Assembly (NCBI GenBank): GCA_000004985.1
Contig: GG738906.1
Reading direction: 5' to 3' (one strand)
Length of the DNA: 64,000 bases
DNA from: Naegleria gruberi
Taxonomy: Eukaryota
The position numbers and the translations under genes were made by a program. The notes under the pieces are model-generated. The model searched no databases and was not told the origin of the DNA. It saw only the letters and a program-made list of their open reading frames with translations. Every line of letters begins with the position of its first letter. The first letter of the stretch is position 1. Of the stretch, positions 1-47,284 are shown piece by piece.

Positions 1-17
1 ACTTTTTGGGTTAGAAT

Positions 18-12379: not shown

Positions 12380-12480
12380 ATTGAAAAAAGTCCTTTTTTG
12401 TTCTTGCTAATTTTTTAAAGCTGTTTTTCGTATCCAATGCATATCCATCAGTGAACCTCTCACAATCACAATTAAAAAAA

Positions 12481-23790: not shown

Positions 23791-24150
23791 ATGAACAAAC
23801 CACTGGCTTTTGTTTTAGTACTGTTGTTGGTGTGTTGTTTGATGCAATATGTTCAGTCATCATCACTGTCTTCTCTTCTATCCTATTCCGATTCTCTAAC
23901 ACTACATCAGAAAGAAAATACTCTTATTTTGGCTGATGAGGCTAAAGTTGGATCTATTGTGACATTGACTAATGAGGAGTTTGAAGATTTTTCTAATGCT
24001 GAAATATTTGGGGAGGATTTACAATTCGTGGAGAATGATGGAGAGTTGACTCTTTCAAATAATAATATACTGTCTGCCGATAAACAGAGTGTTTCTTCCA
24101 TTACCACATTGAACAAGGAAGAAGAAACCAATGTTTCTTGGTTGGCATAA
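23791..24150 (+). CDS. Small secreted protein, 119 aa, with a signal peptide. Hypothetical.
   Basis: N-terminal MNKPLAFVLVLLLVCCLMQYVQSSS fits a signal peptide. The ORF fits exactly between two flanking genes. No homology recognised. Confidence 0.4.
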   Translation: MNKPLAFVLVLLLVCCLMQYVQSSSLSSLLSYSDSLTLHQKENTLILADEAKVGSIVTLTNEEFEDFSNAEIFGEDLQFVENDGELTLSNNNILSADKQSVSSITTLNKEEETNVSWLA

Positions 24151-24159: not shown

Positions 24160-26703
24160 TTAAAAATGGTTTTTATTTGGCTTTTTGTTTTGAGCAATAA
24201 CAGCTTGGGAATTGTAAAGGTCAGCTATTTGCTCTGCTGAGGTGGCTTGTTCTGGCTTTTTGTCTTCTCTTGTTCTAACAAATCTTGGAAATCTTAGGGC
24301 AATACCTTTAGATTCATCAACTAGTCCTATTGCAGCCATGTGAGCAGGCGAAATGGTAAGATCAGCTGCCTTAATCTCCCAAACAACATTGGCATCAAAC
24401 CATACATCAGGTCTTTGACTTTCTCTAAAGCTAAAGTAGGATTTTGGTGCAGAAATTATGTGTTCATTCATTTTATCTGCACATTCCTTCAGCATTTCGT
24501 CTGAAAATCCTGTTCCTATCTTACATATAGATTGGTATTGGTCGGATTCTGGATCAAAGCATGCAAGTAAAAAGCCACCATAAACACCAGTACGTTTACC
24601 TCTTCCCTTGTAGCCTCCGATAACTACCAAGTCAACCGAGTCACCTAACCCTTCAATATAATCCTTCTTAAGCTTTAACCAGTTGAAAGACCTTTTTGAG
24701 GGTTCATAAGTGGCATCTACCTCTAAAGTTTTAACCATCAAACCTTCACAGTTACCCTTGATTGAATCTTCCAAAAACACTTGAATGTCATTAAGGTCGT
24801 TTGTATCTCTGTGGGATGCAAACATGAATTTATCGTCAGAGGTAGCGAAAGAATCATGAAGTATTCCTCTTCTTTCCTTAAGATTCTTCTTGAGGCATGA
24901 CTCACCATTAATGTACAGAATATCAAAGGCAAATAGACAAACCTGAACCTTGATATCATTAATATTAATATTTTTTCTTCCTCTTGTGCTTAGTACCTGG
25001 AAAGGTTTAATCTTTTTTTCAATAGGATCAAAGGCAACAACCTCACAGTCAATAATGAAACTCTTGACATGTTCTTTAGTAACTTGAGGAAGCATTTGAA
25101 TCAAGTCAGGATATTTGCTGGTGTGGTTTTCCATATTTCTACTGAAAATTTTGATAGACTTATCTGGAAGCATGTGTATTTGGGCTCTCTCTCCATCATA
25201 TTTGAATTCACAGGTAAATTCTTTTTCTCCAAACCTGTCAAATAATTCTTGAACACCTTTTGCGCTCTTAGCCAACATTGGACGAACTGGAAATCCAGGT
25301 TTCAAATGGCAAATATCATGTAACTTTTCGAAACCATGTTCTAATAAAGCTGGTATAATGTCATCATAACTTGGAAGTTCAGAGTAGACAGATTTAAGAG
25401 TTTCCTTAGCAAACTTAAGGTCTGCTTCATCTAGAACTTTTTTACCACCCCTACTCAATAAAATCGCATGGGAAAGAGCAATTAGCACTGTCTCTTCACC
25501 AAGTCCTATTCTCAATTTACCTTGTAAGGACCTTATGATAAACATTGGCTCAACATCAACTGAGGAAACGAGCAATAATTTAATCTTCTCTACTTTTGTG
25601 TTCATACTCTTCTTACCTTCTGTTGTGGCAATAAATTTGAACGAATCATAAACACTCTTAAGGGTTAATGATTTAGGTTTGAACATGGTTTTTTGTGTAC
25701 TTCTAGCTACATTTGCCACTAGACCAAGATCACCTTCTTTAACACTCAATTCTTTGATTTTCTTCAATGTCTTTCCGGTTGCCTCTGCTAGAGCTTTCAT
25801 AATTAAACTTTCACCAACACCCAACTCGATACCAAAGTGGGAAGGCGCTAATTTGTTAATAGATAAATAGACAGAATAAAGCAAATCACTTGGTGATGTA
25901 GCAATAATACTTCTAAAACAATTACATAACAGTTCAGTTTTTTTGATAGAAGAACCAATTTTTGAAATTTCATCTAAAGTTTTGGCAAGAAAAAGGTATG
26001 GTGCACTTTTAAATTTAGACAAAATTAGAGTAGTAAAAACAAACCTATTTCCAGTCTTCCAGGTTGCAGAGGCGATTGGGTCGTATGAGTTGTATTCATA
26101 GTTTGGAGCTTTAGAATTCTTTTTAACACTCGTTGAAACTTTACAAGAAACCGAATCATTTTCTTCTTCAATCTCATCATGATCTTCTTCCTCTTCTTCA
26201 TCGGAAGAGTATGATGTAGTATCCATTAATGTAGAGGTTTTTTCCTCCTCCTCTTCTTCTATTGTTTCGTCATCAATTTCATCATCTATTATTTTTCTTT
26301 TTTTTGTTTCATCGGATTGTTCAACTTTTTCTTTTCTCTCCTCATCGTTTCTTTTTCTTTTCTCTGTTTGTTGCGAATTTTTTGATCCAAAGAATGATCT
26401 GTTTTTACGGTAATTATGGCTTTGCTCCAGATTTGTGAAACTTACGTCAAGGAAGATTGTTCTTTTTTCATTTTTTTTTATTTTTAACAACAATTTTTGG
26501 CGCGATGTCGTTTCATTAATTCTGGTTGAGACAGTAACATTGTTAACTTGATTCAAACAATCAAAAAGTAAATCCCAAAAGGCTGACACATTCATTTTCA
26601 TAGTAACATGAACATTCTTTGGAAGATTTGTCATGTGATAAATGTCACACACAGTTCTTCCATCACAAAACCTGGAGTTACATTCAATATCAACCCTCAT
26701 CAA
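24160..26703 (-). CDS. lig1: ATP-dependent DNA ligase I.
   Basis: Adenylation motif EFTCEFKYDGERAQIH (KxDGxR). DNA-binding, adenylation and OB-fold domains lie in the canonical order (…EGLMVKTL…, …VYGGFLLACFD…, …PRFVRTREDK…). There is an acidic N-terminal linker. Confidence 0.9.
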   Translation of the reverse strand: MMRVDIECNSRFCDGRTVCDIYHMTNLPKNVHVTMKMNVSAFWDLLFDCLNQVNNVTVSTRINETTSRQKLLLKIKKNEKRTIFLDVSFTNLEQSHNYRKNRSFFGSKNSQQTEKRKRNDEERKEKVEQSDETKKRKIIDDEIDDETIEEEEEEKTSTLMDTTSYSSDEEEEEDHDEIEEENDSVSCKVSTSVKKNSKAPNYEYNSYDPIASATWKTGNRFVFTTLILSKFKSAPYLFLAKTLDEISKIGSSIKKTELLCNCFRSIIATSPSDLLYSVYLSINKLAPSHFGIELGVGESLIMKALAEATGKTLKKIKELSVKEGDLGLVANVARSTQKTMFKPKSLTLKSVYDSFKFIATTEGKKSMNTKVEKIKLLLVSSVDVEPMFIIRSLQGKLRIGLGEETVLIALSHAILLSRGGKKVLDEADLKFAKETLKSVYSELPSYDDIIPALLEHGFEKLHDICHLKPGFPVRPMLAKSAKGVQELFDRFGEKEFTCEFKYDGERAQIHMLPDKSIKIFSRNMENHTSKYPDLIQMLPQVTKEHVKSFIIDCEVVAFDPIEKKIKPFQVLSTRGRKNININDIKVQVCLFAFDILYINGESCLKKNLKERRGILHDSFATSDDKFMFASHRDTNDLNDIQVFLEDSIKGNCEGLMVKTLEVDATYEPSKRSFNWLKLKKDYIEGLGDSVDLVVIGGYKGRGKRTGVYGGFLLACFDPESDQYQSICKIGTGFSDEMLKECADKMNEHIISAPKSYFSFRESQRPDVWFDANVVWEIKAADLTISPAHMAAIGLVDESKGIALRFPRFVRTREDKKPEQATSAEQIADLYNSQAVIAQNKKPNKNHF

Positions 26704-27647: not shown

Positions 27648-27930
27648 TTTTTAAATAATTAATTTTTTAAATATTAATTTTTTAATGACCTTGGATCTCC
27701 TACCAATAGAACAAAAACGTCTCCTTTCGTTGATTAGATTGATAAAAAAAAGTAATGGTACAACAACCCTCTTCCTTTGATAGAACATTTAACGCTTGTG
27801 GAATTTTGTGTGTGACACAAACTAGCCGCCCAAAAACAGGGGCACCTTTTACTGTTCAAGTCAAAATTTATTCAAAAAGAAAATCCAAACACCACGTAAC
27901 TATTTTTTGAAGGAGTGTTTAGGTGGCAAG

Positions 27931-30900
27931 ATGAAGCAATATTTGTTAAATGTGGCGCTTTTGTTATTAATTTTCTGTGTTTGTGTTTCTTCTTCGGTTG
28001 CTACAAGAAGCAGTACAGAGATTTGTGGATTATTAAGAAGTTTTTCATCGTTCAAGCCTAATGCAGATCCAGATTACTTGGTCGGATTAGATGATTTATC
28101 TTGGGTGAGCACAGCTTGCCAATCCTTAAATACCAACGATACGGAGTGGACTTTCAGTACAGGATGGTTGGAATCTAAAACCATCAAGCCAACTTTTCTG
28201 CCTTCCCAACTCTCTACAATTAACACCAATATATTAAGAAACACTACATTTTCCTACAATATGGAAAATGATACCATCTATTTGGAGGTTACCTTTTCGA
28301 TCAATTCAATTGTGAAGGGAAAAGTTGATGTTATCAATGTGGATGCAGAAGAATTGATCTATACATTTAAGAAATCTACCAGGGATTACATCGATTTTTC
28401 TTCCCTTTCCTTTTCCCCAATTTCTTGGGAGGGAAGCTTAACTTCAAATTCTTGCAACGCTTCAAATATTAATTCCTTCACGAGAACTATATGTTTTTTC
28501 GATTCAAACCTCTTTGATGGCTCTAAGCCTGTTATTTTGGCCATAGGTAATTCTACTAATGATGTTGAGAATGGACTCAGCCAAGAAATTACTTCAAGTT
28601 TCATGTATTTGGCGACTCAATTTGGTGTCAACACACACTTTACTCAAATATCTCCATATAGTTTTAGTTCACCTTCGGTGAGAGGGGTTTTTTTGGATAG
28701 CTCCATGATGTTGAGGCACTTTACAAATGCTACCTACATTCCAAAATCAAAACTTTTTGATTATGAGAAAAACGTCTTCTTTTCAAATCAAGGAGAACTT
28801 TATCAATTATCTGTAGAATGTATAGCAGAAAACTGTTTAGGATCAACCATTGAAGCTCTTAAAGAACTTTTAGAAGAGTCAACTAGAGCTACAAACTGCT
28901 CTATTTCATTCGAAAGAGCTAAATCAAGTTTGACAGCAGCTATTTTTATTACTGATACATCCATCCACCCTCTTGCTTACTCTGGATATAGTGAAGGATT
29001 CGCATTTTGTAGAAATATCAATGATAGTGCGGTTAGTGTTAGAATCGCTGTTAGGGCAACACCAGTAAATGAAATATGGCCTGTCAAACTATATACCCAA
29101 AACGCAAAGAGTGCTTCTACCTTATTACGTTCTATACCTCTATCTTTGAATGGGTATATTTCAGGAAAAATACATTATAATGGTGATTTGTACTATTCTT
29201 ATCCATCAAACATTTATTCCAGTTTGCCTAATAGTGGAGTTTTTATAAGAGATTTGTCCATCAATACCAAATTGATTCATAACGTTATGGGAAAGGTTAG
29301 AAATTCATTATTTACAAACGTATCTGTTCTTGATCAATATGTACTTGGTTTAATGAGTGAAACAAATGTAGATTCAATAATTGCAGATTATTCGAGTGGC
29401 ACAATGTTTCCAACCTTTATTGGATTTTTTAAACATTTTTCTGAGAAATATTATGATAGTATCAGATTCTTGATTAAGAATGACACTGAGTCAACTGTTG
29501 AAGTTTCCATAATTTGCTCCAACAAAGAGTCAATTAATATTACTGATTATGGCATTTCTTCCATAAATTCTCAATTAGAAATCTTTAGAACCAAGGTGTT
29601 AGAAAAATATCCAGAATTATCAAACCTTAAAACCAATACTATTTCCGAAGTTACCCTACTTTCAAAACAACTCTTTACTGGTGCTGTTACTTCCATGATC
29701 CACATTACTGGCTTTTCAACAGAAGATGTATCAGTTTTTGTTGGTTCTCAATTGGATTATTCTGCATCTTTATATTTGAAGGCAAACTTTGAGCAAAGCT
29801 TATTTTCGGAAATTTACGCCTCCCATGATTACAAGACTAATAGTAGTGCGATAAAAGGAAAAATCACAAGAAATGGAGAAGCATTTTTTGTTGGATTGAG
29901 TGAAGGAAATGTAATAGTGGGATCCTCCCCTGCAGGTGTTTCTTTCATGAAGTATTCTGACGCAATTTCTATTCTTTCTAGTAGAGTAGATTCTATTCCT
30001 AACATTAACAGAACAATACCCCTCATTTCAAACGTTCTAACTCTAGTAACGGACAAGTTCAGTATTGAAAATATGCTAATCGTTTTAGCAGCCAAATTGA
30101 GATCTACACAACAAGCTAATACTATTGAAGTTTCTGCAGTAATAGAAGAATTTTTATACTCATTCTGCTTTGATTATGGTTGTAGTGGTTCTATCACAGC
30201 CAATGTTTCTCCAAAAGATGGTTCTAATTTGGGAATGTCACTGTCTATTGTGAAAATGCAACATCTGCACATTGTTGAAAATAATTTGGAGATGTTGCCA
30301 ATAACTCCTACAGTAGGTGTATCTTCATTAATTAGAATGGATACGTTTATCCATTTATCCTTAATTAATCCTTCATTCGAGTCATTCACTATTAAAGGGA
30401 AAGGAGAATTAGATAATTGGGCAGTTCCCTTCAGATATAATATGCAATCAGGAAGAGTTTTACAAAGTTTTATATCATTTGATATTAATATGCCATCTTA
30501 TGTTAATTTTGAAATTATTATGGGAATAGAAATTGAACATAACAATGAATCAATCTTTTTCAATTTTAAATCAGGAAATTTGCTGTTATCAAATAACATT
30601 CCATCTATTCAATTTTCAGGTGATGGCCAAGATAGCTTTGTTCCACCTCAAAATGTGATGTACACGCTTAAGGATGTGTTTAAAGTTTTAACACCAATCA
30701 AGAATGGTCCTCTTAATTTTAAAGTTCCGTTTTTAACTGACGATTTCAACCAGTTTGTTGAATGGGATGGTTATGTTGATACACTCACAGACATGTTACT
30801 TTATCCTAAAATGTTGAGAGGGTCAGACCCACTAGTTTCATTTACTTTAGCAGAAGAGCAGACCCTACTAGATGATTTGAATATCACTATTAATGGTATT

Positions 30901-33900
30901 ATATATCACTGTGCTGGATTTAGTATTGATAACAATTCCACAAATACCACTATTAATAGTTTTAACAGAGGTTTGGAAAAGTGTAATTTAGGCTCTATTT
31001 TATGTGCCAAAGAGTTTAAAAATGAAGTGTCTGATTTTTTAATTGGTATTTTCCCTTTCAATCATTATGGAATCTATCAAATGGAACTAAAGTTTTCTTC
31101 CAATATAAGGGCACCTCAATTTTTTGAATACCAAGTTCCATTTTATCCAATATTCTCTTCATGGAGTGAATTAAGTTGGTTACTCCACATTACCACAAAT
31201 GAGGTTCTCAAAAAACCAGTTGTTTCTACAGTAGATAGGAAATTCCTTCCTATCCCAGAAGAGATGCAAAATGTTTACCCAGCTCAATTTAAAACAATAT
31301 CAGTAGATTTTACATTGAAAAATAATGTTATGAAACCTTCTACATTTGTAAAATTTTTGGAGGACTCTGGAAGTAAGATTTCTTTAGAAACTACTGGTAC
31401 AGCCAATGTGCACAATAATATCCAATTTAACGGAAAGTATGGTTACGTTTTTTCCATTCCTGGTTTATATAATATTACACTACTTACTAACGCTGATTCT
31501 AATTTTACAATTTATAAGAACATTACAGAGTTAGGTTCTTCATTCTCAATGTCCATTAAGGCACAATTAAGGACAGCCACTGAAACAAAGACAGTAACAT
31601 CTAATTTACATATTAGTCTTCCAATTGGAAGAAATTTCTCAGATATCATGATGAATTGGTTACCTGAGCAAGTAGACTACGATATCAGACCAATGTTTTT
31701 TGTTGATGTTAATACAGGTAGCGAAATTTTAGGGACACAAGATCAAATTCAAATAACCCTTAGAAGAGTTATGCTAGAAACTGACAAATTCCTTGTACCT
31801 CTATCATTATTTATTTATGATAGCAATGTACCAATTATTTCAATGACATCACAAATACCTCCAACATCTTTACCAATTTCTTCAGAAATTTCTATCACTT
31901 CACTGCTGAATTTAACTTCTAATGACGATCTTTCATTAAAATCTGGTTCATTGGGTTTATTTGGAGTGAAACCTACTTCAGAGATGGATGGGTCTGGAAT
32001 TATCACACTTGCTTTGAACTTACCTGATGAACACGTTCCTTTGTACAAGTTAATGAGGGCAACTACTGACATTTCATTATTATTTGATCTCTTTGACATT
32101 ACCATAGCAACAGATAACAGTCTTTCTGTACAAAATCCAACAATGAATATCAACAGTTCAATTCCAAGGTTGAACACTATGTCAGTAGTTTCAAAAAAGA
32201 GTTGGAAAATCAACTCTCAAAGCATTCTTGATAATATTGCTTCTGTAATCCACAATCTAGAGGCTAAATTTGATTCTGTTGAGGATACTGTAAAAGAAAC
32301 ATATTATGGACTTTCCCAAACAAACGCAAGTTCATTATGTTCTTTCCTTGACGAAATTATGAAATCAACCAATGACCTTGGAAGGAAATCTGTCCTTCAA
32401 ACACCGTTACCATTCGTAAAGAAGACATTTAAACATTTACTTGAAAGGGCTATAGTTGATAAGTTCCAGTCAGCAAAACAAAGCGTTTGCAATGGTATTG
32501 TTGAATTTTCTTTGGAAAAGTTTTGCGATTTATTAGAGCATAGATGGGGTCAAAAAGTTTGCTACGATTCTCTAATAGCTGACAAGAGTTTTATTGTAAC
32601 CTTAAAGCTTATGAACTATGAGTTAGTTTCGAATGAAGAGCTTTTTGTTGAACCAAATATTTTCGGTACTACCAAAATACCTGCCATAATGGGAATGGAA
32701 GATTCTGTTTCACTTAATTCTAATGCAAATTTTGAAATTAGAATTAAGTGTTCTTGGAAAGATGGCTTTGTGTTTGATATCCTTGATGGAACAACATTTT
32801 ATATTAGTTCTGACTTTGCTGTAAATGGAAATATGAAAGCTTCTCTAGGGCCTATTAATTTAATGCTTGGAAGTGCAAACGTTTTTGTTGGTAAACCAGC
32901 AGTTCTTTCAGCAACACTTGTAAATGGGCTTATTGATCTTTCGCTCACTGGCAATGCTGGTTTCAATTCATTGATATCATTTTTCGATCTATCATCTTGC
33001 CAATTATCAATCGATATACCTGATATAGCCAAATTTTTGGGTGGTAGTTCAAATTCTCTAGTGATAGACCAACATACATGTAAAGGAGGGTCTTTTGTAA
33101 ATTCTGTTACACAAATATTGAAAGACCATACCTTACTAGATTTCTTCAAAGATCCTAGTACTTTCCTTAATCAATTCCAAAATCATTTTTCTGACTTGTT
33201 AAAGAAAATCTTTGATGGACCAAATGGTTTATTGAATAATGTTGTAGTACCAGTTGTGGATAAAGAAATCCAAAAGATATTACAAAAAGAATTAGGGTCA
33301 ATAATTGGCCCAGAAATGACCAATGATTTGACAAATTCTATCACAGTTATGGTAAATAGTGTAATCTCTGGAAAGTCAGTCACTGGAGATGAGCTTACTA
33401 GAGTTATTTTAACAGAATTTACTCAAATAATGTGTCAGAAGTTTAAACCTGTTGAATGTCCAAAAGTACCAGATATCCACAGTGCCGAATATGTTTGGGG
33501 ATTTGAGCTCAAGAGGGTACTGAAACATGGAGTTGCCAATCTTGGTTTTGATATGGGTTCCTCTGCAAAAGGTACTCACTTAACTTCTGAGGTTGAATTA
33601 GATTTTGAAATGGACTATAAACTCAGATTTAATTTGGTATTTTCAAAATCAAATGGTGCTAGTATTACTTTCAATGAAGGTTATGTCTTGGAAGGAATTA
33701 CTGACTTGAAATTGGATGGAACTCAAAAAGTTGAGGGTGAGATTGGTTTTTTAGGAGCAGAAATTATTTTAGATCCTACAAGTTCCTTCCACGCAGAGTT
33801 TGGTGTAGATAATCAGTGGAAAGCATTCATGAAAGCAAACTCAATTTTAACAGGAAAAGCAGAAATGGGATTTGCTGGAATTATTACTAAATTATTGAAA

Positions 33901-36900
33901 AATGTTGAAGACCCTCTTGATGCTCTTCCTCATTTTGAATCAATTATTGAATTCAAATGGAATTGGGAAATGGGAACTTCATCATCCACTACTCCTGAAT
34001 TCTCTCTATCAGAACCTAGTTTATGTATTGGTACTCTTTTATCTAGAATGGCAGAAGGGGTAAGAAAACAAGCAGAAAAGGTTATTGGAAATTTAGATAA
34101 GATTGTTGGTCCTGCTTCATTCCTTACAAAGGATGTGGGAGTACTATCTAGAATATTTGGTAGAGAAATGTCTATTGCAGAGCTAGGAATATTTTTGGCT
34201 AGACACTATTGTTCTGGTGAATGTGATGCGGTTAATGTTGAGGAATTAATTAGTGCCTACAAAAAATTGCACATTCTAATGAACAAGCTTCAAGTTGTCC
34301 GTAACTTTTTATCAACAATGAATGGGTGTGGAATTAGAAGAAAATTCAGCAAATTCGTTGTTGATTTGCAAAAATCGGACGATCCCATTATTCATGATGT
34401 TCCTGACCAAGCATTGATTTTTGAACAAGATATTCCTCCAAGTATGAAGCCAGAAATTGAACAAACATTTTCTATGATTCAATCAAGAACTTACAACTTA
34501 CATATTCCTTTATTTGAGGAACCAAAGAAAATACCATCAGCTCTTATTGGCTTAATGCTAGGAAAAGACTTCAATTTAGTTGAAATTGAAATGCCAAAAA
34601 TGGTACTTTCATTTTCAGCTCATTTTGGATTCCCTATTTGGGCATTCCCTTACGTAGAACTTTACATTCAAGCTTCTGCTGGTCTTGTTGTAGATTTACC
34701 AACAATTGCTTATACTACTAAAGGTATACGAGATGCTGTGCAAACAAAGAAAATAACTAATTTATTTAAAGGTGTTGGAATGATCACTAGAAAACCAGAC
34801 GGATCTCCTATTTGGATTGTATCTGGTTATGTTAGATTAACAGGTGGAGTTTCTGTCAGTGTGGTAAGTTGTAATTAATTTGTGCTCTATTTTTTTACTT
34901 ACAATATTTAGTTTATTTTCAGTGGAAATGCATATGCATTCTTGGAAGCAGAGGCAAGAGTTACTGTATTAGATATAAATGGAAATCAAGTGGTTACTTT
35001 TGATGAATTGTTCTATTTAATTCAAAAGAATGGAATTCAAAACACCGTAACATTTGAAATGCAATTATCTGCAGGATTTGGATTTAATATCAAAGCTTGC
35101 ATTAAAGTTTGGTTTGCAAAGAAATGTTGGACCATTGTAAGCCAAGAGATTAAGGTTCCAATTTTCCCTAAACTTACTTTTGGAGGCAAAAGAATTGCAC
35201 CAGTAGCAGATAGAAATAGTAATTTGAATTTAGATTATGTGAATGAATTTGGTTCATCAAATTCTGACAAACCAGTTTTCATAGTTTATCCTTCAACGAG
35301 TAATGCCGATAGACACACTATTGGCTTCAGTCCATCCAGCAGTATGACAACAAATCTTCCACCACTTTCTTTTCCTAATCAAGGAACAAATTCTGTTGCT
35401 TTTTATGGCAATGCAGGAGGAAAACCTTTCGAAATTAAATCTTTAGGTTATCAAGGGCTTGTTACAGTTCCACCTCTAAACACTGTAACATCCAGAATCC
35501 CATGTGATTCTTATAGAAATACTGATTCTTTTACCATATCCCCAACCTTCATTACACCAAACAATTATTTAGGACTACAATACACACCTGGTATGTGTTC
35601 TCAAGCAATTCTAGAGAATGTAAAATATGGAACAAAGTTTAACTTGCAAGGAACACCATGTCATGTTGTACTAAATGCAGCTTACAAGTCACAAATAGAA
35701 ATTGGTACTGATTCTCAAAATTACAAAGGACCAGTTACAATTAATGGACCTGGAGAACTGACATTTAGTGTTCCTTCTCCAAAATATCATGTTACATCAT
35801 CATCTATTTCAATTGATGGTTCAAGTAATTTACTTAGACTTGAAAATGATATGCCATCTATCACAGTAGTAGGTGACAACCAACCAACAAGTTTTTCTTT
35901 CAGTAATATTGTCAAAACATCAGCTATTACTGCTCTAGGTAGTGAGTCAGATGATGAATTCTTGGTATCTGATGTTACATCAGTTTATGGAGGTTTAATG
36001 TTGAATGGTGGTAGTGGTATCAATAGAGGTACTTTTATTATTCCTGCTTCTAGTGATAATATGAATATTATGATCACTAGCTCATCATTATCTATTGACA
36101 ACACCAATACAATCAGATGGGCAAATCTTGACCACAGAAGCTATAGAGTTTTGAACAGAAATAATCATACAAATATCAAGGTTTCATATTTCTCTCCAGA
36201 TGATTTTAATTCATTCCATGTGGAGACTGAAAATAATCCTACAGGTGTTATTTACCATAATATCTCTTCTTGTTCAACACGAAATGAAATTAGACTTGAT
36301 CTCAAAGGAGGAGGTGAACAAGTGGTGTTACTTTCTCAAAATGGTGAATTCTCTCCTCTTCAATGTTCAATGTACATCCAAGGTGTAGATGGACAAAATA
36401 GTGGATATACTATTCTTATTGACGCAACAAACGAAAAAAGAAATCTCAGATATTCAATAGAAAATGGAAGAGTTACAGTGGATGATCCTGATAACACTGA
36501 TTTTATGACAAACCTTTATATACGTCAGATCTCAAGAGTTAAACTCATTGTTTCAGAAAAGCAATACTCTGATATAAAATTGGTACAAGGAGCTCCAAAC
36601 ACTGAATACCATTTCCAATTTGCGGAAAATACTACAGATTATGGAGTTAAAAAGCCAACTTTGACTTTGTGTAACTTACCTTCAAAATCAACAACTCTTG
36701 TTACTGGAAGTGCTGATATCAATCTAGGTCCAAAAACAGGCATTTGTAGTAATAAGTTTATTAATCCTTTGGAAAATTTGAGAAGTTTGATTGTGGTTGC
36801 TGGCCAAAATTCAAAGGTCACAATGAATTCTGGAAATGATGGGTCACAACACTTTAATATGACCGATAGATGTTTATTTGCCACAGATGACAGAGGTGTT

Positions 36901-39900
36901 AGTTTGGTTGATGTTGACACACCAACCCCATGGATGCAACAATTATTGTTAGAATATGGATTTAATCGTTCTGATTGTCATATTGCTTACTACCCTCAAA
37001 GAACATCATTTGAAATAACAACAGGAAAGGGGGATGATTCATTCTATGGAAGATATGTTACTGCCTCTAGCATTGATATTAATTTGGGTGAAGGAAGAGA
37101 CACCATATTTTATGGAGAAACAGCTACCCCCGCAAACTTTAAAACAGAAAGAGGAGCCAGCAAGTTTGTCCAAGTCAGTCCAACAGGCCCTATCAATCTG
37201 TCAATGAAAAGTAGTACAACAGAAAGAAATATTATTGATTTCTTTACTGGTGATTTAGTTTCTTCCATGACTGGAAATACAGTTATTTATCCAACAGGGC
37301 CTAACCCATATGATTATTCCACAATCTCTTGCTCTAGTAGTGACCTCATAACGTTGCATCATTCTTTCCCTCTTAATTATGATCACAGTACCAAGATGTC
37401 ACTGTTTACAACAAGAGCAATCAACCAGGATATTGTTTATATTAATGTCACTGAAATTTCTACCTCCAGACAAGTGGAATTAAGATCGGATACTAAATTT
37501 ATTGTTTCTCTCCTTGGCTGGGATTCAACAATTGTATTCTTAGGAACAAATCAACAAGGTGAATATGCTAAGAACTTTGTTATTGAATTGAATTTGGATA
37601 TTTCTTCACCTGGCAGAATATTTATTGATACAATATCCAGTACAAACGGTGAATTAGTAGTTAATGTTCCAAATTATGATGCTCAGTCATTCCCACTCCG
37701 TATTGCATCACTAGGACCTGTCAGCTATGGATTCCTTTCTATAGGTGTATTAAGAGTTGAAACTTTAGGAATGAATCATGTTACTGTTAATAGCCCTTCA
37801 ACCCGTGTGAGTGCAGTTATTGAAAATACTCCATCCACTATGGAAGTTGTTTTGAATTTGAGACCACTTTCTACAGTAGATTTGCAAGGGTTGGGTGGTT
37901 TAATGATAATATCAAATGCAGCAGTTACAGTTAGCAGAAATTATTTTATCAAACCAAGTTCTGTTATGGTTGTTGGTAGTTCTTCTGTTACTGTTGTTCT
38001 TGAATCTGACACTTCTTATTTAAATGACAGGTGTATGAATATTCAAGGAATACTTAATACAAGAGTAGTTGCCAGTGAGTGGTTCGCACAGATTATGCAA
38101 GGATTTAATATTCCTTCCACTGCAGTATCTTGTCCATTGTATCTTTTTAGAATTCCATCATTAGATTTTACTGGTCCATTCTTTATTGTTTCTAACTTGG
38201 ATAGCTCATCCAATGTTAGAGCATTATCCATGAAAAATGGTGATCTTTTCCTATCTGACACTATCAGAGATTGGACCAATACTGCAGTATCTGGCGGTGT
38301 TTTAGGTGTGGACGGTAGGTTTGAAGTCCATCTCACAAAATCCAATCTAATTGTTGCCAATAGATTTTCCTCTCCATCTAGTCTTACACATTCTACTTCT
38401 AATCCAGGTACAATCACAAGTATCAGATTTAATCATAATAACTTTAAAGACAAGCCTGTTTATTATTGGGAAACCGACACCTACAACACCTATTTGAATC
38501 CCTCTCCATCAAATATGAATATTCCAGTAATTTATGTAGACAGTGTACCAATTAACAAATTGAATGTTGATTTTTCAAGCTTACCCTTTAATAACTTTAA
38601 TGTCAACCTCGAAAAGAATCAGTTTTTAACTACTGATAATAATGGCATTCAAAAACTAAAAATTTTATGGACCAATCATCCTTTGGACATGGATATTAAT
38701 CTTAACGGTAAACAAAACTCTATTGTTCAACTAACAGAAGAAATAAGTGAAGAGAGAACATATAATATTAGGTCAACAAAAAATTCCAATACCATTATCA
38801 CTTTGAAAGAGTCATCCCCTTATCCAACTTATTCCATTTTTACTAACAGTGAGAGAATACAATTTGGTAATTCTACAATAACTTGCACACCTGATAGAAT
38901 AGTTTTGGACCTATTGAGTCAAGTTCACATTGATGTTAATGAGATACCAGGATCCGCAGAAAGTATATTCTTAACCAAGACTACTAGCTCAATGACCATT
39001 CAAAAATCTTCCGGAAATATGATAGTCTCTAACTACTTGATAGATGTTGTTGATAACTATCTAATTAATCATCAATTCCTTCTTTTTGTTACTGGCGACT
39101 CAGTCGTCACTAAATTGAGAACCAACCAAGCAATCACCTATGATGGTGGATGCTTAGTAAGATCTTCTGGGCTTAACGCTTTGATATCAACATGGTTCCA
39201 TGACTCTCTTACCAAATATTATCCTTCTGAAATTAATTTCCTTTATCCGTGCTCCCTGTTTTCATTCAATACCAAGAGATTAGATGTATTAAACTCTCCA
39301 TACAGTTATCTGAAAAATCTTAATTTAATTAACAATATGGAACTACATGTAAACACTGGTATTGTGAAACTTTTGGACAACAAGGTGAGATGGAAATCAG
39401 TATCACTTCTTCCATCCTCTCTAAGAGTAGATTCATTATTCTACTTAACTATTAAGGACGGGCTCGAAGTTTTTGTGGACACCACCTATCATAATGACAG
39501 TCAGATACTTTATAGAGGTAACAATGTAAATGAATCATCTGTTTGGCATTTTGGATGTCCAGACAATAGCACCAAACCGTTATTGAACATAACTGCACAT
39601 CAAGAATCCAATATCAAATTCTGTTTAGATTATATTCAACTCTCAACCCCGTCACTTTCACTCAATACTCGTAGAGTAGTTGATGTTGGAATATTGTCGA
39701 CTGATCAAACATTACCTACTGACAATACCACAATTTTATTGAATTCTAATAATTTGACTTTATCACAAGCCAACCCGCTCATAGTAAGTTGGACCAACAA
39801 CACTCTTGTTTCAGTAGAAATATTTGTTTCAGTGCTACCTCATTTAGTAATTGTTGAAAGTATTGAAGGAATGAATAATATTCCAATTCTCCATGACCTC

Positions 39901-41877
39901 AATAATACAATAATTAGTCTTTTAATTCCACACGATGAGGGTGTCAGCATGATAAACACAGCTCTCTCGTTCTATTCAAAGACTAGAACAATAACAACAC
40001 GTACATCCAAAAGAAACACTTGCTTCTTACCAGAAATCCAATGCACAAATCAGTTCTGGGAAGATGTGAACGTTCTAGGAAAGGATGCTTTTATGACTAA
40101 ACCTTTGAGAGAAGAATGTGAGGAAGACACTATATTACTGTTAGACACAAGAAATTCATTCTCTTGCGGTTTGAATCATGATTTTGCTAGTCTTAGTTTA
40201 CCAAGCAATCAATATCAAGTTCAATATCCAGAATATTTAGAAAATATTATTTACGCATGGTACTCTCTTACTTTGGTACTGTCCTCAGTGTTGTTTGTAT
40301 TATTTGGCATGTTGGATCCAGGATTATCTAATTTCTTAAACTTGGCAATGTTGGATAAAGTGTCTCCAAGCCCTGTTGTTTGGAGTTGGGATACTAGAGC
40401 TCTTATTACTGCATGTAGAAATGCTGTTCAACACATTAGTACAGGTTGGGTGAAATATGACATGAATGATAAGCATCAAATTCCCCATGTTTTGCTATAT
40501 GTTGTAACATTCTTTGCTGTTTGCATTGCAATACCGTTTGTACTAACAAGAAACAAGAAGAAAGGAAGAGCCAGACCAGTTCTTATGGTATTGTACAAAA
40601 TCTTCCAAATTTGTATATGTCTTTTGTTTTTACCAATGTTTTCTCAAACAACTGAGATAGCATATTTTGTTCCAACCCTCTTGTGTTACTTGATTGTACT
40701 TACCCTAACAATTTCTTTCAATATTTGGAGTCCATCATATCTGATTGCCAATCAATCCGTTACAAAATATTTGAGAGTTTTCAGTAACATTTATTTAATA
40801 GTAATTGTTTCCATTGTAATGATACAAACAGGAGTTACATACTTTGATTTTAACATATTTGGAGTTGAAGTGTGGGTAATTGATCTTCTGTCTGTAATAG
40901 TGCAGCAAGTACTTAGACTTGTTTACATAGTACCATTGTTTGTGATTTCAGGTAAAAGATGGTTCCATTATTTCTTCCTTATATTATCTGTATTACTTTG
41001 GATTGCCTCATTTGTTATTGGATTAGTTTCCTTGGTGTTCAATCCACTATTCTATGACATTGATTTATTCCCATATTGGATCACTTTTAACTGTACATGT
41101 ATTGTATATTCAGTTCTTGTTTGCTTCATTTGGCCTAAAATGATTCCACCAAGAAAATCATCTATTATTAACTCTCTAAATAGTAATACATTAGGTATTA
41201 GAAGAAGCTTAGGTATTGATGGAAACAGAAACAGTCTTAATGCTTCACAAGAAGAATATGAGGAGTCAATTAAGCTTATTAAATCTGACAGACAGAACCA
41301 AGGTTACGAAAATATCTCCAACTCTCTGTTGAAACAACCATTAGTTAGTCATGATGATTATGAGGAATATAATGATTCTGGATATACTAATTTTGTAGAA
41401 ATGGAAAATATGAAAAATGAAAACTACGCCCAACAAGACTATCATCATGCACCAGAATCAGATAAACAAAAATATGAAGAAAGACAAGAAGGAACAGCAA
41501 CAGGTTCTGTTTATTATACCAATGAAGAAGTGAACGAAAATAATAATCAACAAACAGATTATTACGAGGAGAGTTATGATAATTATGAAAATGACCAACC
41601 AAACCTCACTCTTAATCGACAAGTTAATGAACCACAATCATTCCCAATTATTCCACCTCCACCTGCTTATGAAGAACCTACCTATTACACAAACGATGAA
41701 TATCGCTCCACCTCACCAACTAGCAACAATAACAACAGAAGTGATTACAAGTATGACGAAGATGAAGAAGAAACCAATGAAGAACGAAAGTATTACAAGG
41801 AAATGCTCAGAAAAATTATTGTTGAATCTACGGATCCAAGCACATCAATTGAACCTGGTTCCTTCAATCAAGTTTAA
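27931..41877 (+). CDS. Giant (about 4630 aa) secreted multi-pass membrane receptor-like protein. It has a signal peptide, an ectodomain of about 4100 aa, a GPS-like juxtamembrane motif, 8-9 TM helices and a Tyr/Asn/Glu-rich cytoplasmic tail with a PPxY. 2 exons: 27931..34863 and 34912..41877.
   Basis: MKQYLLNVALLLLIFCVCVSSSVA signal peptide. Two very long ORFs are joined in frame by a 48-nt GTAAGT...TTTAG intron (34864..34911). The second ORF has no ATG or signal peptide of its own. Hydrophobic helices run from YAWYSLTLVLSSVLFVLF through ITFNCTCIVYSVLVCFIW (about 40260..41150). Just upstream is C..C..W...C...C-GLNHDFASL. The tail contains IIPPPPAYEEP. Confidence 0.75.
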
Positions 41878-41893
41878 GTAATAAATACCAATA

Positions 41894-43884
41894 TTGATTG
41901 AAAAAATGAGAACAAGCGTAAAAGCAGACCTTTCAAAAATCTTTCACAATGCTATTTTAAATTCACCTCTGCAAAAATTCATCGGAACCAACAATACATC
42001 TTCCCTTCAATGTATTAGCAATGGCCGTATTCCATTTCAACCAGTGCCATCTCAAAATAAGACAAAAAAAACAACTTTTTTAGGTGACTATCAAACACCT
42101 ATTGCCATGCAGTTGGGAAATCAATTGAAACAATCACCAATTGATGTAGCAAAATCGCTTGGAGAATCAATTCTAAATAATAGTGAAATTGTTGAAAAAA
42201 TTGATATTATTAATAATGGAGTCATTTCTCTCTCCCTTTGTGATGAATATGTGAAACGTAAAATTTCTGAAATATTCAATCAACAACCTTTAAATGTAAA
42301 GGATAAAATCAGAGTCATTGTTGACTTTTCAAGTCCAAACATGGCCAAGAGAATGCATGTTGGACATTTACGCTCAACAATTATTGGTGATTGCATTTGT
42401 AGAATTTTAGAGTATGATGGAAGGTTTGAAGTGGAAAGAATTAATCATGTTGGAGATTTTGGTACACAATTTGGAATGTTGTTAGCTTTTATTGAAAGAA
42501 ATTCAATAGATTTGGAAAAATTACAAACACAAAACCCTCCTGAACAGCTAGAAACTGTTGAAAAATACTATAAGGACTCAAAGAAACTTTTTGATAGTGA
42601 TCCCTTATTCAAAGATCTTGCACACCAAAAAGTGATTGCACTCCAACAGGGAAATGATGAATCTATACACAAAATATGGAAGTATCTGTTAGAATGCAGT
42701 AGATATGAATTCGATTCCATATACGAAAGGTTAGATGTTCGATTAGTTGAAAAGGGCGAATCATACTACAGGGATTTTATTCCAAAAACATTAGAAATTT
42801 TAAATCCACTGATACAGGAGAGTAATGGTGCCAAGTGTATTTTCACAGAAAAAGAACAAGAAACAATAACTGAAGACCAAAAAGAACCCCCTCTCATGGT
42901 ACAAAAGGCAGATGGAGGTTATACATACGATACCACTGATCTGGCAACATTGTGGTATAGACTTTTTGTTTCAAAGGGAAAATGGCTTATTTATGTTACT
43001 GATTTTGGCCAAGCCTCTCACTTTAACAAAGTCTTTAAGGTTGGAGAAATGATGAAATGGATTGATCCTCTCGAAAATAGTAGGGATCTAGTGTGGAGTG
43101 AAAATGCTACTAGTTTAACCTCATCCAAAGTTAGAATAGATCACGTTGGATTTGGTGTGGTACTCGATGAAGAAAAAAAGAAATTTAGAACTAGATCTGG
43201 TGATACAGTGAAATTACATGATTTATTAGATGAAGCTATCAAAAGATCTTACGAAATCATAAAGCTGAAGAGTAAGTATTTTTTCATATTTTTGGAGAAT
43301 TGTTGAATTTTATAGATGATGAAAGATGCAAAGAAAATGAGGAAATATCCAGTTTAACTGATGAACAAATTATGGCAGCTTCTAAAATTGTTGGATACGG
43401 TGCTGTTAAGTATGCCGACCTGAGAACTAATAGAACAACCAATTACACCTTTTCATTTGATAAAATGTTGGACTTTAGAGGAAACACTGCTGTATATTTA
43501 CTTTATGCATATGCTAGAATTTCCTCAATCATTGAAAAATCAGGTGAAAGAGAACTAATGAAAGAATACAAGGATCAAGTTGCAAAGGGTGATTTGTCTC
43601 TTTTTACTAATTTAAAACAATCAGAATCAGAATGGAGACTTGCACTTAAAATTATTGAATTTAAGGATGTGTTAAATTTGGTAATGGACAAACTGGAACC
43701 ACATTATCTTTGTGAGTACCTATTTGATTTATCGAATAACTTTAGCGCCTTTTTCCGTGACTGTAAAGTTATTCAAGAAGACAAACAACTCCAAAGAAGT
43801 AGATTACTTTTGTGTGAAGCAACTGCACAAACTATGAAGCAATGTTTTGATTTACTTGGTCTAAAAACATTGAATAGGCTTTAG
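41894..43884 (+). CDS. Arginyl-tRNA synthetase (class I). 2 exons: 41894..43271 and 43316..43884.
   Basis: HIGH-type motif PNMAKRMHVGHLRSTIIGD. A DALR anticodon-binding C-terminus (AVYLLYAYARISSII). The intron at 43272..43315 (gtaagt...tatag) keeps the frame (…KLKNDERCKEN…). Confidence 0.85.
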
Positions 43885-46800: not shown

Positions 46801-47284
46801 ATTCAACCTGTGTTTTTTGTTCCATCATAAAATTAACAATTTCGCTTGGATTCGATAAAACATTACTTGAAACTTCCGAACCATCAACACTACCCACTCC
46901 TGTCTGGGAATTAATAGAATAATTTGGAGGTAGAGCAATTTCGTGTAAACAATCGTTCTTCTCACCTAATTTACCAATAGATTTTGATGCAGAATTATTC
47001 ACAGAAACAATTGTTGGTGTACTTGTGGTTCTTGTAAGTTGTGTAGAATCATCAATAATTGTTGGTGTTGGTATGTATAAAGCTTCTTCAGGTAATGATG
47101 TTTCCGAAGTTTCCTCCGATGAAGTGATATCAACAATGACAGGCTTTAATTTCTTATTTTCTCTCAGTTCAACATCACGCTCAGCAATTTTTATTGATTC
47201 TTCTAGTGTTCTCTTTTTTGATTGTTGTTGATTGGTGGATGTTCCAAACACATTGAACAAGTCATCTTGTGAGAATGGATCCAT
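43892..47284 (-). CDS. Mtr4/Ski2-family DExH RNA helicase (exosome cofactor).
   Basis: Helicase motifs SAHTSAGKT, DEVHY and SATMPN, plus FATETFAMGLNMPAKTV and MSGRAGRRG. It also has an arch/DSHCT-type C-terminal region. The 1130-aa single ORF length fits Mtr4. Confidence 0.85.
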   Translation of the reverse strand: MDPFSQDDLFNVFGTSTNQQQSKKRTLEESIKIAERDVELRENKKLKPVIVDITSSEETSETSLPEEALYIPTPTIIDDSTQLTRTTSTPTIVSVNNSASKSIGKLGEKNDCLHEIALPPNYSINSQTGVGSVDGSEVSSNVLSNPSEIVNFMMEQKTQVELGLKQAAKEYPFTLDAFQRQAVRAIELSQSVLVSAHTSAGKTAVAEYAIAKSLKDGSRVIYTSPIKALSNQKFRELQEEFTDVGLMTGDVTINPNSSCIVMTTEILRSMLYRGSEILNEVQWVIFDEVHYMRDKERGVVWEETLILLPNSVKYVFLSATMPNATEFAGWIAKLKGQPVHVVYTDYRPTPLQHYIYPVGGQGIHLVVDKHTFKQDNWKKAVEELNNASKNVTSGGSGSGNVNSSGKVSGGDRKKRVDTSLVKLVNMIMKRNFQPVIVFSFSRKECETRAVSLSKSNFNDEEEMSLVAEVFNNAIDSLSDEDRKLPQVETMLPLLQKGIGVHHSGLLPIMKEVIEILFQEGLIKVLFATETFAMGLNMPAKTVLFTGIEKYDGQITRRLTSGEYIQMSGRAGRRGLDDKGIVILIMDDPDLREEDAKQLMNGIADCLNSSFHLSYYMVLNLLRVEEITPEYIMERSFFQYQSEKKRLAFEQTLNETIVKRDSMKIENEPQLSSYYNMKKELENEYNNLRKLITTPKYSIPVLSAGRLLRINGFGWGILIKFTKKKHAEKLQINQTKSSDYLIDILLPSHPDKPNEPYPVKEYKKSLEPKPIIKTLSVDLIECYSSVKVYLSKEMKSRPDANSGEAKSTILKLLETISRFKSQPTTETTDGMMSIDKLSVYKYGDVPRLDLVEEMGIARAQVKNVVDTIQQLESRLSYSPFYQYELNASNGNASKDDINYKNQIALFESKLEIENEIEALKKQIKTTGQVVMKEELKNMMRVLRRLGFATEDNVITAKGRVACELSSADSLVITEMIYNGAFSDLTPEQCIAVLSCFASEVTSSQNRQDDKDALVDELKKPYEELEKAARRVAEVSIESKLELDTDKYLQSFPCNMMNLTFAWCNGAKFVDICKMTEIFEGSIVRSMRRCEEIVRQMCAAAKAIGEETIEKKLLIGLEKMRRDIVFSSSLYL

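What the first reader, a model, noticed from the sequence alone, without database searches (positions are those of the whole stretch)
27931..41877. One 14-kb gene encoding an about 4.6-kDa-residue secreted, multi-pass receptor-like giant protein
Two ORFs (2323 and 2311 codons) fuse in frame across a 48-nt GTAAGT..TTTAG intron (34864..34911), which I found by frame analysis. Only the first ORF has an ATG and a signal peptide. The product has about 4100 aa of Ser/Asn/Thr/Ile-rich ectodomain with few cysteines, possibly beta-rich. I recognise no repeat or domain in it. Then come 8-9 TM helices and a 240-aa tail. I know of no dictyostelid protein with this architecture.
Basis: partly seen in the sequence, partly recalled or inferred. 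Interest (0 to 1): 0.8.

Follow-up and report, generated by a model that had tools for sequence, protein, structure and literature searches.

The report
Giant multi-pass surface protein of Naegleria
The two long reading frames are one Naegleria gruberi gene for a 4,632-residue membrane protein whose unstudied family is spread across amoebae, apusomonads, Capsaspora and choanoflagellates, and whose public gene model has wrongly lost its membrane domain.

Summary
ORFs 27907..34878 and 34942..41877 join across a 48-nt GTAAGT..TTTAG intron (34864..34911) into a 4,632-aa product. The N. fowleri orthologue is one uninterrupted 13.5-kb ORF and reads VSVSVFIF across the exact junction. The organism is Naegleria gruberi, not a dictyostelid.

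The public N. gruberi model (4,231 aa) uses a donor 9 nt upstream.

The protein belongs to a collinear family of 3.8-5.5-kaa proteins in Naegleria, Balamuthia, Phalansterium, Thecamonas, Capsaspora and choanoflagellates. Members share a signal peptide, a roughly 4,000-aa ectodomain with conserved cysteine pairs, and a C-terminal helix bundle. All named members are labelled hypothetical. There are no Pfam hits and no matches to solved structures, by sequence or by fold.

A roughly 570-aa module also occurs in giant bacterial adhesin-like proteins.

Function is inferred, not shown. The most likely reading is a giant cell-surface adhesion or sensing protein held by a new polytopic domain. It fails the membership tests for adhesion GPCRs, polycystins and RTX proteins.

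The parts
27931..34863 (+). Exon 1 (codons 1-2311), starting at the ATG
   Evidence: Identical to residues 1-2308 of NCBI N. gruberi predicted protein P0001.
27931..28002 (+). Signal peptide (residues 1-24, MKQYLLNVALLLLIFCVCVSSSVA|TRS)
   Evidence: Hydrophobicity scan, (peak 2.52 at residues 5-23). Similar N-termini occur in N. lovaniensis, Balamuthia and choanoflagellate members.
34864..34911 (+). 48-nt spliceosomal intron, GTAAGT...TTTAG, with an in-frame TAA at 34876-34878
   Evidence: The junction product VSVSVFIF equals the intron-less N. fowleri and N. lovaniensis sequence. A 44-nt intron of the same type sits in the neighbouring ArgRS gene.
34912..41877 (+). Exon 2 (codons 2312-4632 plus the TAA stop)
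   Evidence: Collinear with N. fowleri P0002 through to the end of the membrane domain near residue 4400, beyond which the tails no longer align.
32251..35238 (+). Most conserved core (residues 1441-2420). It spans the intron and consists of three modules, each a helical bundle followed by a sheet of very long antiparallel strands.
   Evidence: 60-80% identity among Naegleria species and 25-39% to a metagenomic homologue. The HMMER profile gives 271 hits. AF2 model: pLDDT 76.9. No solved-fold match.
33463..35223 (+). Module of about 570 aa (residues about 1845-2415) shared with giant bacterial adhesin-like proteins (some with RTX repeats or a LEPR-XLL N-terminus) and with diplonemid giant proteins
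   Evidence: hmmsearch with the family HMM, (i-Evalue 1e-13 to 5e-35). Bacterial partners carry HemolysinCabind, LEPR-XLL, Beta_helix, Cadherin-like and Big_9 domains.
34972..35007 (+). EF-hand-like loop DINGNQVVTFDE (residues 2332-2343); family consensus DxNGxGxVTFDE
   Evidence: Read directly from the sequence. Consensus. Only a sub-threshold profile match to the NCS-1 EF-hand (E = 0.7), so Ca2+ binding is inferred.
35911..36993 (+). Membrane-proximal repeat 1 (residues about 2645-3005), ending in the C2965...W...C3000 loop
   Evidence: hhalign of family-alignment slices: 2844-3000 vs 3258-3385, prob 96.5%, E 7e-10. Motif shown.
36994..38418 (+). Repeat 2 (residues about 3006-3480), starting with GxGxD motifs (3016, 3037) and ending in the C3352...W...C3385 loop
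   Evidence: The GxGxD motifs are a resemblance only: no HemolysinCabind hit and hhalign to a bacterial RTX-bearing relative gives prob 0.7%.
38476..39588 (+). Repeat 3 (residues about 3500-3870) with the C3725...W...C3758 loop; an extra copy that most other family members lack
   Evidence: hhalign 3251-3463 vs 3625-3836, prob 98%, E 2.4e-13. Family-alignment occupancy is only 0.24-0.40 here.
39784..39981 (+). 198-nt stretch (residues 3936-4001) removed as an 'intron' in the public N. gruberi model; here read as coding
   Evidence: Open in frame; aligned to N. fowleri at weak identity (23/98 in the window 3901-4000).
40118..41115 (+). Stretch of about 1 kb (residues about 4047-4379) removed as an 'intron' in the public model; it encodes all the TM helices
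   Evidence: Open in frame over about 333 codons. 33-45% identical to N. fowleri and alignable across 19 family members.
40021..40167 (+). Juxtamembrane cysteine-rich module (residues 4015-4063; family pattern C-x-P-x3-C-x4-W...C...C...C)
   Evidence: Cys conserved in 83-96% of members. Small helical/hairpin module in the AF2 model.
40231..41130 (+). Polytopic membrane domain (residues 4085-4384): TM1 (4085-4109), a short hydrophobic helix (4116-4127), an amphipathic helix (4137-4155), then seven long helices (4164-4384)
41131..41874 (+). Acidic, Tyr/Asn-rich tail (residues 4385-4632), not conserved, with PPPPAY at 4559; inferred cytoplasmic
   Evidence: Not conserved: the N. fowleri tail is short. 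Family occupancy 0.12-0.27.

Best explanation
What it is (well supported). This is a single Naegleria gruberi gene, 27931..41877, with two exons and one 48-nt intron. It encodes a 4,632-aa type-I-like polytopic membrane glycoprotein.

A cleavable signal peptide sends about 4,060 residues into the ER lumen and on to the outside of the cell. This ectodomain is non-repetitive at BLAST level but modular:
- a variable N-terminal third;
- a highly conserved core of three 'helical bundle + long-stranded sheet' modules, the last two of which are homologous to a module found in giant bacterial adhesin-like proteins and include an EF-hand-like loop;
- two or three disulfide-looped repeats of about 400 aa;
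- a small Cys-rich juxtamembrane module.

The chain is then held in the membrane by TM1 plus a short hydrophobic return helix, followed by a seven-helix bundle oriented N-out/C-in. It ends in a variable cytoplasmic tail.

It is the N. gruberi member of an old, collinear, unannotated family present in Discoba, Amoebozoa, apusomonads, filastereans and choanoflagellates.

How it most likely works (inferred). It would act as a very long cell-surface adhesion and/or contact-sensing protein of phagotrophic, substrate-associated protists. The disulfide-stabilised, probably Ca2+-binding ectodomain would bind substrate, prey or other cells. The conserved polytopic domain would anchor it and may pass force or ligand occupancy to the cytoplasm. 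In concept this resembles adhesion GPCRs or polycystin-1, but it uses unrelated domains.
For: One gene and the exact junction.

The membrane domain is coding: its sequence is open and conserved.

Family and collinearity: the HMMER core profile gives 271 hits, 78 of them at E <= 1e-30, many 3,000-7,500 aa long. Named members are Balamuthia, Capsaspora, Salpingoeca, Monosiga, Acanthoeca, Thecamonas and Phalansterium. The signal peptide and C-terminal hydrophobic cluster recur in them. Phalansterium P0159, which was not used to build the model, matches family-HMM positions 9-4207 collinearly.

Extracellular location: a signal peptide, plus 34 Cys positions conserved in at least 70% of 24 members and arranged in pairs.

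Adhesin link: the module at 1845-2415 is shared with bacterial giants that carry RTX, Beta_helix, Cadherin-like and Big_9 domains and a LEPR-XLL N-terminus.

Topology: loops TM2-3, TM6-7 and post-TM8 are net positive, while the TM1-TM2 region is acidic. AF2 helix map.

The ectodomain core is more conserved than the TM bundle, and the family-invariant residues are almost all C/G/P/L/W. This fits a binding or structural role rather than a catalytic one.
Against: There is no functional, localisation or expression data.

No membership in any adhesion or receptor family. There is no GAIN/GPS, 7tm, PKD/REJ, cadherin, Ig or RTX hit in the eukaryotic proteins.

The TM bundle and tail are poorly conserved (11-19% identity). 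The bundle may therefore be only an anchor.

N-glycosylation sequons are not enriched: 42 observed against about 57 expected.

The EF-hand-like and GxGxD motifs are below any significance threshold.

An odd number of membrane crossings depends on a 12-residue helix acting as a return segment. That is an inference from charge bias, not from coordinates.

The AF2 models rest on shallow alignments (19 and 22 sequences).
Confidence: 0.5

Rival explanations
1. A structural cell-coat or glycocalyx protein. The giant ectodomain builds or organises the surface coat, and the multi-pass domain is only a strong anchor with no signalling role.
For: The TM bundle and tail evolve faster than the ectodomain core. 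The tail is not conserved even within Naegleria. There is no signalling domain or motif with significant support.
Against: A single TM helix or a GPI anchor would be enough for anchoring. Yet the 1+7-helix architecture, the juxtamembrane Cys module and the conserved extracellular helix between TM1 and TM2 persist from Naegleria to choanoflagellates.
Confidence: 0.2
2. A lumenal protein of an internal organelle (phagosome/lysosome, contractile vacuole or secretory granule) rather than a plasma-membrane protein. It might act, for example, in handling prey after uptake.
For: The signal peptide and conserved disulfides only show a lumenal or extracellular location. The N. gruberi tail has YxxPhi-like and PPxY-like sorting motifs. 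The named taxa appear to be phagotrophs, on background knowledge.
Against: The bacterial relatives of the shared module are adhesin-like proteins, predicted to be secreted or surface-exposed. The tail motifs are not conserved in orthologues.
Confidence: 0.15
3. A transporter, channel or lipid-handling machine. The helix bundle would form a conduit, and the long amphipathic sheets of the core would bind lipid or another hydrophobic cargo, as in polycystin/Patched-type or LptD/large-lipid-transfer-type systems.
For: The core model consists of very long antiparallel strands. Its best, though insignificant, fold neighbours are outer-membrane barrels, LptD and microsomal triglyceride transfer protein.
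Confidence: 0.1
4. Not one functional gene: either two adjacent genes, or a decaying pseudogene in which the stop at 34876 is real.
For: The in-frame stop at 34876-34878 separates the two ORFs if the 48 nt are not removed.
Against: The stop lies inside a consensus GTAAGT..TTTAG intron of the size typical for this window. Both halves are intact over 6.9 kb each. The orthologue is one continuous ORF with an identical junction peptide. ORF2 has no start or signal peptide of its own.
Confidence: 0.03

Closest known systems
Uncharacterised giant proteins of other protists: N. fowleri FDP41_005715, N. lovaniensis C9374_011231, Balamuthia mandrillaris KAL6079658.1, Capsaspora CAOG_08011, Salpingoeca rosetta PTSG_02609 and PTSG_11386, Monosiga MONBRDRAFT_29887, Thecamonas AMSG_10070, and a Phalansterium transcript
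   Same: End-to-end collinear homology (44-46% identity within Naegleria, 17-30% elsewhere). Same order of parts: signal peptide, core, Cys-loop repeats, juxtamembrane Cys module and C-terminal helix cluster.
   Different: Naegleria carries an extra third membrane-proximal repeat, and the tails are unrelated. None has a name, a Pfam domain or a paper. Searches for five locus tags (CAOG_08011, PTSG_02609, FDP41_005715, AMSG_10070, MONBRDRAFT_29887) found nothing.
Giant bacterial adhesin-like surface proteins, some with RTX repeats or a LEPR-XLL N-terminus (e.g. MAG Chloroflexota MEW6094083.1; P0127, P0142, P0148)
   Same: They share a module of about 570 aa homologous to residues 1845-2415 (i-Evalue down to 5e-35). 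They are also giant and mostly beta-rich.
   Different: The bacterial proteins have true HemolysinCabind repeats, Beta_helix, Cadherin-like and Big_9 domains and a LEPR-XLL N-terminus. They show no C-terminal cluster of hydrophobic segments in the hydrophobicity scan. The eukaryotic protein has none of those domains, and the rest of its roughly 4,000 residues is unrelated.
Adhesion GPCRs with giant ectodomains (e.g. ADGRV1/VLGR1)
   Same: The concept: a very large, probably Ca2+-binding extracellular region followed by seven helices with N-out/C-in topology and a cytoplasmic tail.
   Different: No GAIN/GPS, no 7tm_2 signature and no GPCR fold match. An extra TM helix and return segment precede the seven helices.
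Polycystin-1 / REJ-family receptors
   Same: A multi-thousand-residue ectodomain joined to a multi-pass C-terminal domain.
   Different: No PKD, REJ, GPS, PLAT or PKD_channel domains. 8-9 helices rather than 11.
RSF ('Remi-sans-famille') orphan 7TM family of choanoflagellates and other protists (bioRxiv 10.1101/2025.04.15.649019)
   Same: A partly overlapping patchy distribution: both occur in choanoflagellates, filastereans and amoebozoans. RSF is reported as lost from animals, and no animal member turned up here (not tested exhaustively).
   Different: RSF proteins are 7TM-only, with an NxLQxxMNxL helix between TM6 and TM7. That motif is absent here, and this protein has a 4,000-aa ectodomain.

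Membership tests
Unannotated giant-protein family (Naegleria-Balamuthia-Thecamonas-Capsaspora-choanoflagellates) | Collinear full-length homology including the core at residues 1441-2420 | tested here: met
Unannotated giant-protein family (Naegleria-Balamuthia-Thecamonas-Capsaspora-choanoflagellates) | N-terminal signal peptide plus a C-terminal cluster of 7-9 hydrophobic helices preceded by a Cys-rich module | tested here: met
Adhesion GPCR (class B2) | GAIN domain with a GPS cleavage motif directly before the 7TM | tested here: not met
   No Pfam GPS/GAIN hit. No GPS-type Cys/Trp pattern.
Adhesion GPCR (class B2) | Secretin-like 7tm_2 domain or GPCR fold | tested here: not met
Adhesion GPCR (class B2) | Coupling to heterotrimeric G proteins | not testable with these tools
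   Needs biochemical or cell assays.
Polycystin-1 / REJ receptors | PKD, REJ, GPS and PLAT domains and an 11-TM / PKD_channel region | tested here: not met
   No Pfam hits at E <= 1. 8-9 helices.
RTX / hemolysin-type Ca2+-binding proteins | Tandem GGxGxDxUx nonapeptides (Pfam HemolysinCabind) | tested here: not met
   No hit in N. gruberi or in 7 other members. hhalign of the region after the core against bacterial relative P0127, which carries RTX repeats, gives prob 0.7%. Only isolated GxGxD motifs, spaced about 20 residues apart.
LEPR-XLL giant bacterial proteins (NCBIfam NF012209) | N-terminal LEPR-XLL motif | tested here: not met
   No LEP/LEPR string in the protein. It has a eukaryotic signal peptide instead.
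LEPR-XLL giant bacterial proteins (NCBIfam NF012209) | Shared internal module of about 570 aa | tested here: met
   This is homology of a single domain, not membership.
Bridge-like lipid-transfer proteins (VPS13/BLTP1-type RBG proteins) | Cytosolic repeating beta-groove rod with a Chorein_N-type N-terminus | tested here: not met
   No Pfam hit. The signal peptide plus 34 conserved paired Cys positions argue for a lumenal or extracellular location. No fold match.
RSF orphan 7TM family | 7TM-only protein with an NxLQxxMNxL helix between TM6 and TM7 | tested here: not met

The most novel reading that the evidence does not exclude
This family would be a previously unrecognised class of eukaryotic surface receptor, possibly as old as the last eukaryotic common ancestor. 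An ectodomain built partly from a bacterial adhesin module is joined to a polytopic (1+7-helix) domain with no solved relative. The receptor would couple contact with prey, substrate or other cells to intracellular responses in phagotrophic protists. It was apparently lost before or early in animal evolution. On this reading the core and the membrane domain are both new folds.
Probability: 0.3. Interest if true: 0.8.

Novelty: new variant of a known kind. Interest (0 to 1): 0.6.

Why it matters
Three reasons.

First, the reference annotation of N. gruberi appears to be wrong for this gene. Its model removes the whole membrane domain, which turns a polytopic membrane protein into an apparently soluble one. 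Any proteome-wide analysis of Naegleria surface proteins, including work on vaccine or drug targets that extrapolates to N. fowleri, would misfile it.

Second, the gene exposes a conserved family of 4-5.5-kaa membrane proteins with no name, no Pfam model and no solved relative. The family spans Discoba, Amoebozoa, apusomonads, filastereans and choanoflagellates. Two of its hosts, S. rosetta and Capsaspora, are genetically tractable (from general knowledge, not tested here), so function can be tested directly.

Third, one module is shared with giant bacterial adhesin-like proteins. That gives a concrete case for asking how eukaryotic surface receptors were assembled from bacterial parts.

Tried and rejected
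- **Pfam scans.** Both halves of the protein, N. fowleri, the metagenomic homologue, Capsaspora, S. rosetta, 8 segments after the core and 19 TM segments gave nothing above noise.
- **PDB by sequence and profile.** Both halves, the core (A1), the region after the core (A8) and the TM region (A5) gave nothing significant.
- **AFDB Foldseek.** The library was unavailable.
- **Self-BLAST for repeats.** None found. Repeats appeared only with profile-profile comparison.
- **RTX idea for the GxGxD motifs.** Rejected as membership.
- **BLTP/VPS13-like cytosolic lipid-bridge idea.** Rejected because of the signal peptide and the conserved Cys pairs.
- **RSF 7TM family.** Rejected.
- **N-glycosylation sequon enrichment as evidence for topology.** Not enriched, so not used.
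- **The search for homologous proteins.** With large alignments or a full-length query (P0008) it failed. With the core alignment or a 600-aa core fragment as query it was unproductive. The taxon list therefore rests on the exhaustive HMMER search and cluster look-ups, which named only some of the hits. Absence from animals, fungi, plants or dictyostelids is not established.
- **Literature searches.** Searches for locus tags found nothing.


Full report
**Observation.**
The window has 33.8% G+C and is densely packed with eukaryotic housekeeping genes. The sequence between them reads GTAAGTTGTAATTAA...TACAATATTTAG. This has a consensus donor at 34864, an acceptor ending at 34911, a length of 48 nt and an in-frame TAA at 34876-34878. 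Joining 27931..34863 to 34912..41877 gives 4,632 codons and one terminal stop.

**Is the junction real?**
Three independent lines say yes.
- The best database match is an NCBI 'predicted protein' of Naegleria gruberi, 100% identical over 85% of the query. This fixes the organism. That model also joins the two ORFs.
- The N. fowleri orthologue (FDP41_005715, 4,512 aa, 44% identity over 95% of the query) is encoded by one uninterrupted 13,539-nt ORF. Across the junction it reads YARLTGGVSVSVFIFKGSAYAF, and N. lovaniensis reads the same. The public N. gruberi model uses a GTCAGT donor 9 nt upstream and lacks VSV.
- Ultrashort introns of this type are normal here. The ArgRS gene that starts 29 nt after the giant gene's stop codon has a 44-nt GTAAGT..TATAG intron, and removing it restores a 644-aa ArgRS.

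**The public model is worse at the 3' end.**
It removes residues 3936-4001 (nt 39784-39981) and about 4047-4379 (nt about 40118-41115). Both stretches are open in frame, the second over about 333 codons in a 66% A+T genome. The second stretch contains every predicted TM helix. It is 33-45% identical to N. fowleri and can be aligned across 19 family members.

**Anatomy.**
- Residues 1-24 form a signal peptide.
- Residues 25-4084 form the ectodomain.
- Self-BLAST finds no repeats. Profile-profile comparison of slices of a 24-member family alignment finds repeats of about 370-410 aa. Residues 3251-3463 match 3625-3836 (prob 98%, E 2e-13) and 2844-3000 match 3258-3385 (96.5%).
- Each repeat ends in a visibly similar loop: RCLFATDD...PWMQQ...DCHIAY, RCMNIQG...EWFAQ...SCPLYL and GCLVRSS...TWFHD...PCSLFS.
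- The third copy lies where most other family members have gaps (occupancy 0.24-0.40), so it is an extra copy in Naegleria.
- Thirty-four cysteine positions are conserved in at least 70% of 24 members, mostly as nearby pairs. Together with the signal peptide this places the region outside the cytosol.
- The count of N-glycosylation sequons (42) is below the compositional expectation (about 57), so it carries no weight.

**The core.**

**The membrane domain.**
An AF2 model of residues 4008-4400 on 19 sequences has pLDDT 77.5 and pTM 0.72. In order it shows:
- a small Cys-rich juxtamembrane module;
- TM1 (4085-4109);
- a 12-residue hydrophobic helix (4116-4127);
- an amphipathic helix (4137-4155);
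- seven long helices (4164-4384).

Across 19 sequences the TM2-3, TM6-7 and post-TM8 loops are net positive, and the TM1-TM2 region is acidic. This fits a seven-helix bundle oriented N-out/C-in, preceded by a TM1 hairpin, with a cytoplasmic tail. That topology also reconciles an outside N-terminus with an inside C-terminus. It is an inference, because no model coordinates were available.

The tail (4385-4632) is acidic and rich in Tyr and Asn, with PPPPAY at 4559. It is not conserved even within Naegleria.

**Relatives.**
An exhaustive HMMER profile search of the core against 1.84 billion representative proteins finds 271 hits. Of these, 78 have E <= 1e-30, and many are 3,000-7,500 aa long with the core at about residue 1,300-2,500.

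Cluster look-ups name the following, all 'hypothetical':
- Balamuthia mandrillaris;
- Capsaspora owczarzaki CAOG_08011;
- Salpingoeca rosetta PTSG_02609 and PTSG_11386;
- Monosiga brevicollis;
- Acanthoeca and S. infusionum;
- Thecamonas trahens AMSG_10070;
- Phalansterium solitarium.

A hydrophobicity scan shows an N-terminal signal-like segment in members whose models start at the true N-terminus, and a C-terminal cluster of about 6-9 hydrophobic segments in the complete models. A family HMM matches Phalansterium P0159, which was not used to build it, collinearly over positions 9-4207.

More distant hits are diplonemid and bacterial giants. They share only residues about 1845-2415. The bacterial ones carry RTX repeats, a LEPR-XLL N-terminus, and Beta_helix, Cadherin-like and Big_9 domains, so they look like surface adhesins.

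The eukaryotic proteins have none of these domains. The GxGxD motifs at 3016 and 3037 do not amount to RTX membership. Literature searches for locus tags return nothing. The recently described orphan RSF 7TM family is a different thing.

**Interpretation.**
The anatomy is well supported. What the protein does is inferred. Several features point to a very long surface adhesion or contact-sensing protein:
- it is extracellular and disulfide-stabilised;
- it is probably Ca2+-binding;
- part of it derives from a bacterial adhesin module;
- its invariant residues are almost all structural (C, G, P, L, W);
- the named hosts appear, on background knowledge, to be phagotrophic protists, many of them substrate-associated.

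The conserved 1+7-helix domain suggests more than simple anchoring, but its low sequence conservation (11-19%) keeps the pure-anchor rival alive. Rivals involving a transport or lipid-handling role, or an internal organelle, cannot be excluded. The two-genes or pseudogene rival is effectively excluded.

**Novelty and score.**
The gene is already in GenBank, but mis-modelled and unnamed. The family has no Pfam model, no solved relative and no literature that I could find. The architecture resembles adhesion GPCRs and polycystin-1 in concept, but it fails every membership test run here. I rate it a new variant of a known kind (a giant ectodomain joined to a polytopic receptor-like anchor). I give a 0.3 chance that it is a truly new receptor class with two new folds. 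Interest is 0.6.

Noticed in passing
window 41878-43884 (+): An arginyl-tRNA synthetase gene starts (ATG 41906) only 29 nt after the giant gene's stop codon, on the same strand. The giant gene's 3' UTR and poly(A) signal must therefore overlap the ArgRS 5' end or coding region. ArgRS has a 44-nt GTAAGT..TATAG intron at 43272-43315.
   Followed up: partly
window 39784-39981 and 40118-41115: The public N. gruberi protein model removes these open, conserved stretches as introns. The first begins with a perfect GTAAGT. Whether either is ever used as an alternative intron, which would give a TM-less secreted isoform, is unknown.
   Followed up: partly
L001 (N. fowleri VFQX01000048.1) 6001-19539: The N. 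fowleri orthologue has no intron at the position of the N. gruberi 48-nt intron, so an intron was gained or lost within the genus. Its flanking genes (RGS-domain proteins, MPC) differ from the N. gruberi neighbours (DNA ligase I, ArgRS, an Mtr4/Ski2-like helicase), so local synteny is not kept. The annotated N. fowleri N-terminus (MTNSSSIIRNNNNN...) lacks a signal peptide and may be mis-started.
   Followed up: no
window 18718-23748 (+): A 1,676-aa ORF with no Pfam hit at E <= 1e-5. It is Lys/Glu-rich with acidic and basic low-complexity tracts. Unidentified.
   Followed up: partly
window 23791-24150 (+): A 119-aa ORF with a clear N-terminal signal-like segment (MNKPLAFVLVLLLVCCLMQYVQS), lying between the 1,676-aa ORF and DNA ligase I. 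Possibly a small secreted protein; not examined.
   Followed up: no
L002 (JGI metagenome 3300062344, contig Ga0606058_0140) 9596-22405: A 4,269-aa collinear homologue sits as one uninterrupted ORF on a eukaryotic metagenome contig, next to fragmented STI1/HOP and mitochondrial-carrier genes. Its cytoplasmic tail has a long coiled-coil-like stretch that is absent in Naegleria. The organism is unknown.
   Followed up: no
L003 (ENA ERZ25039603 contig_6667) 8001-30692: A 7,563-aa bacterial protein shares the 1845-2415 module and combines it with RTX, NosD/Beta_helix, Cadherin-like and Big_9 domains. A PilZ-domain gene lies just upstream and a Somatomedin_B-domain gene downstream.
   Followed up: no
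window 24160-26703 (-) and 43892-47284 (-): The flanking genes are DNA ligase I (DNA_ligase_A_N/M/C) and an Mtr4/Ski2-like exosome helicase (DEAD, MTR4 beta-barrel, DSHCT). Both are ordinary housekeeping genes.
   Followed up: yes
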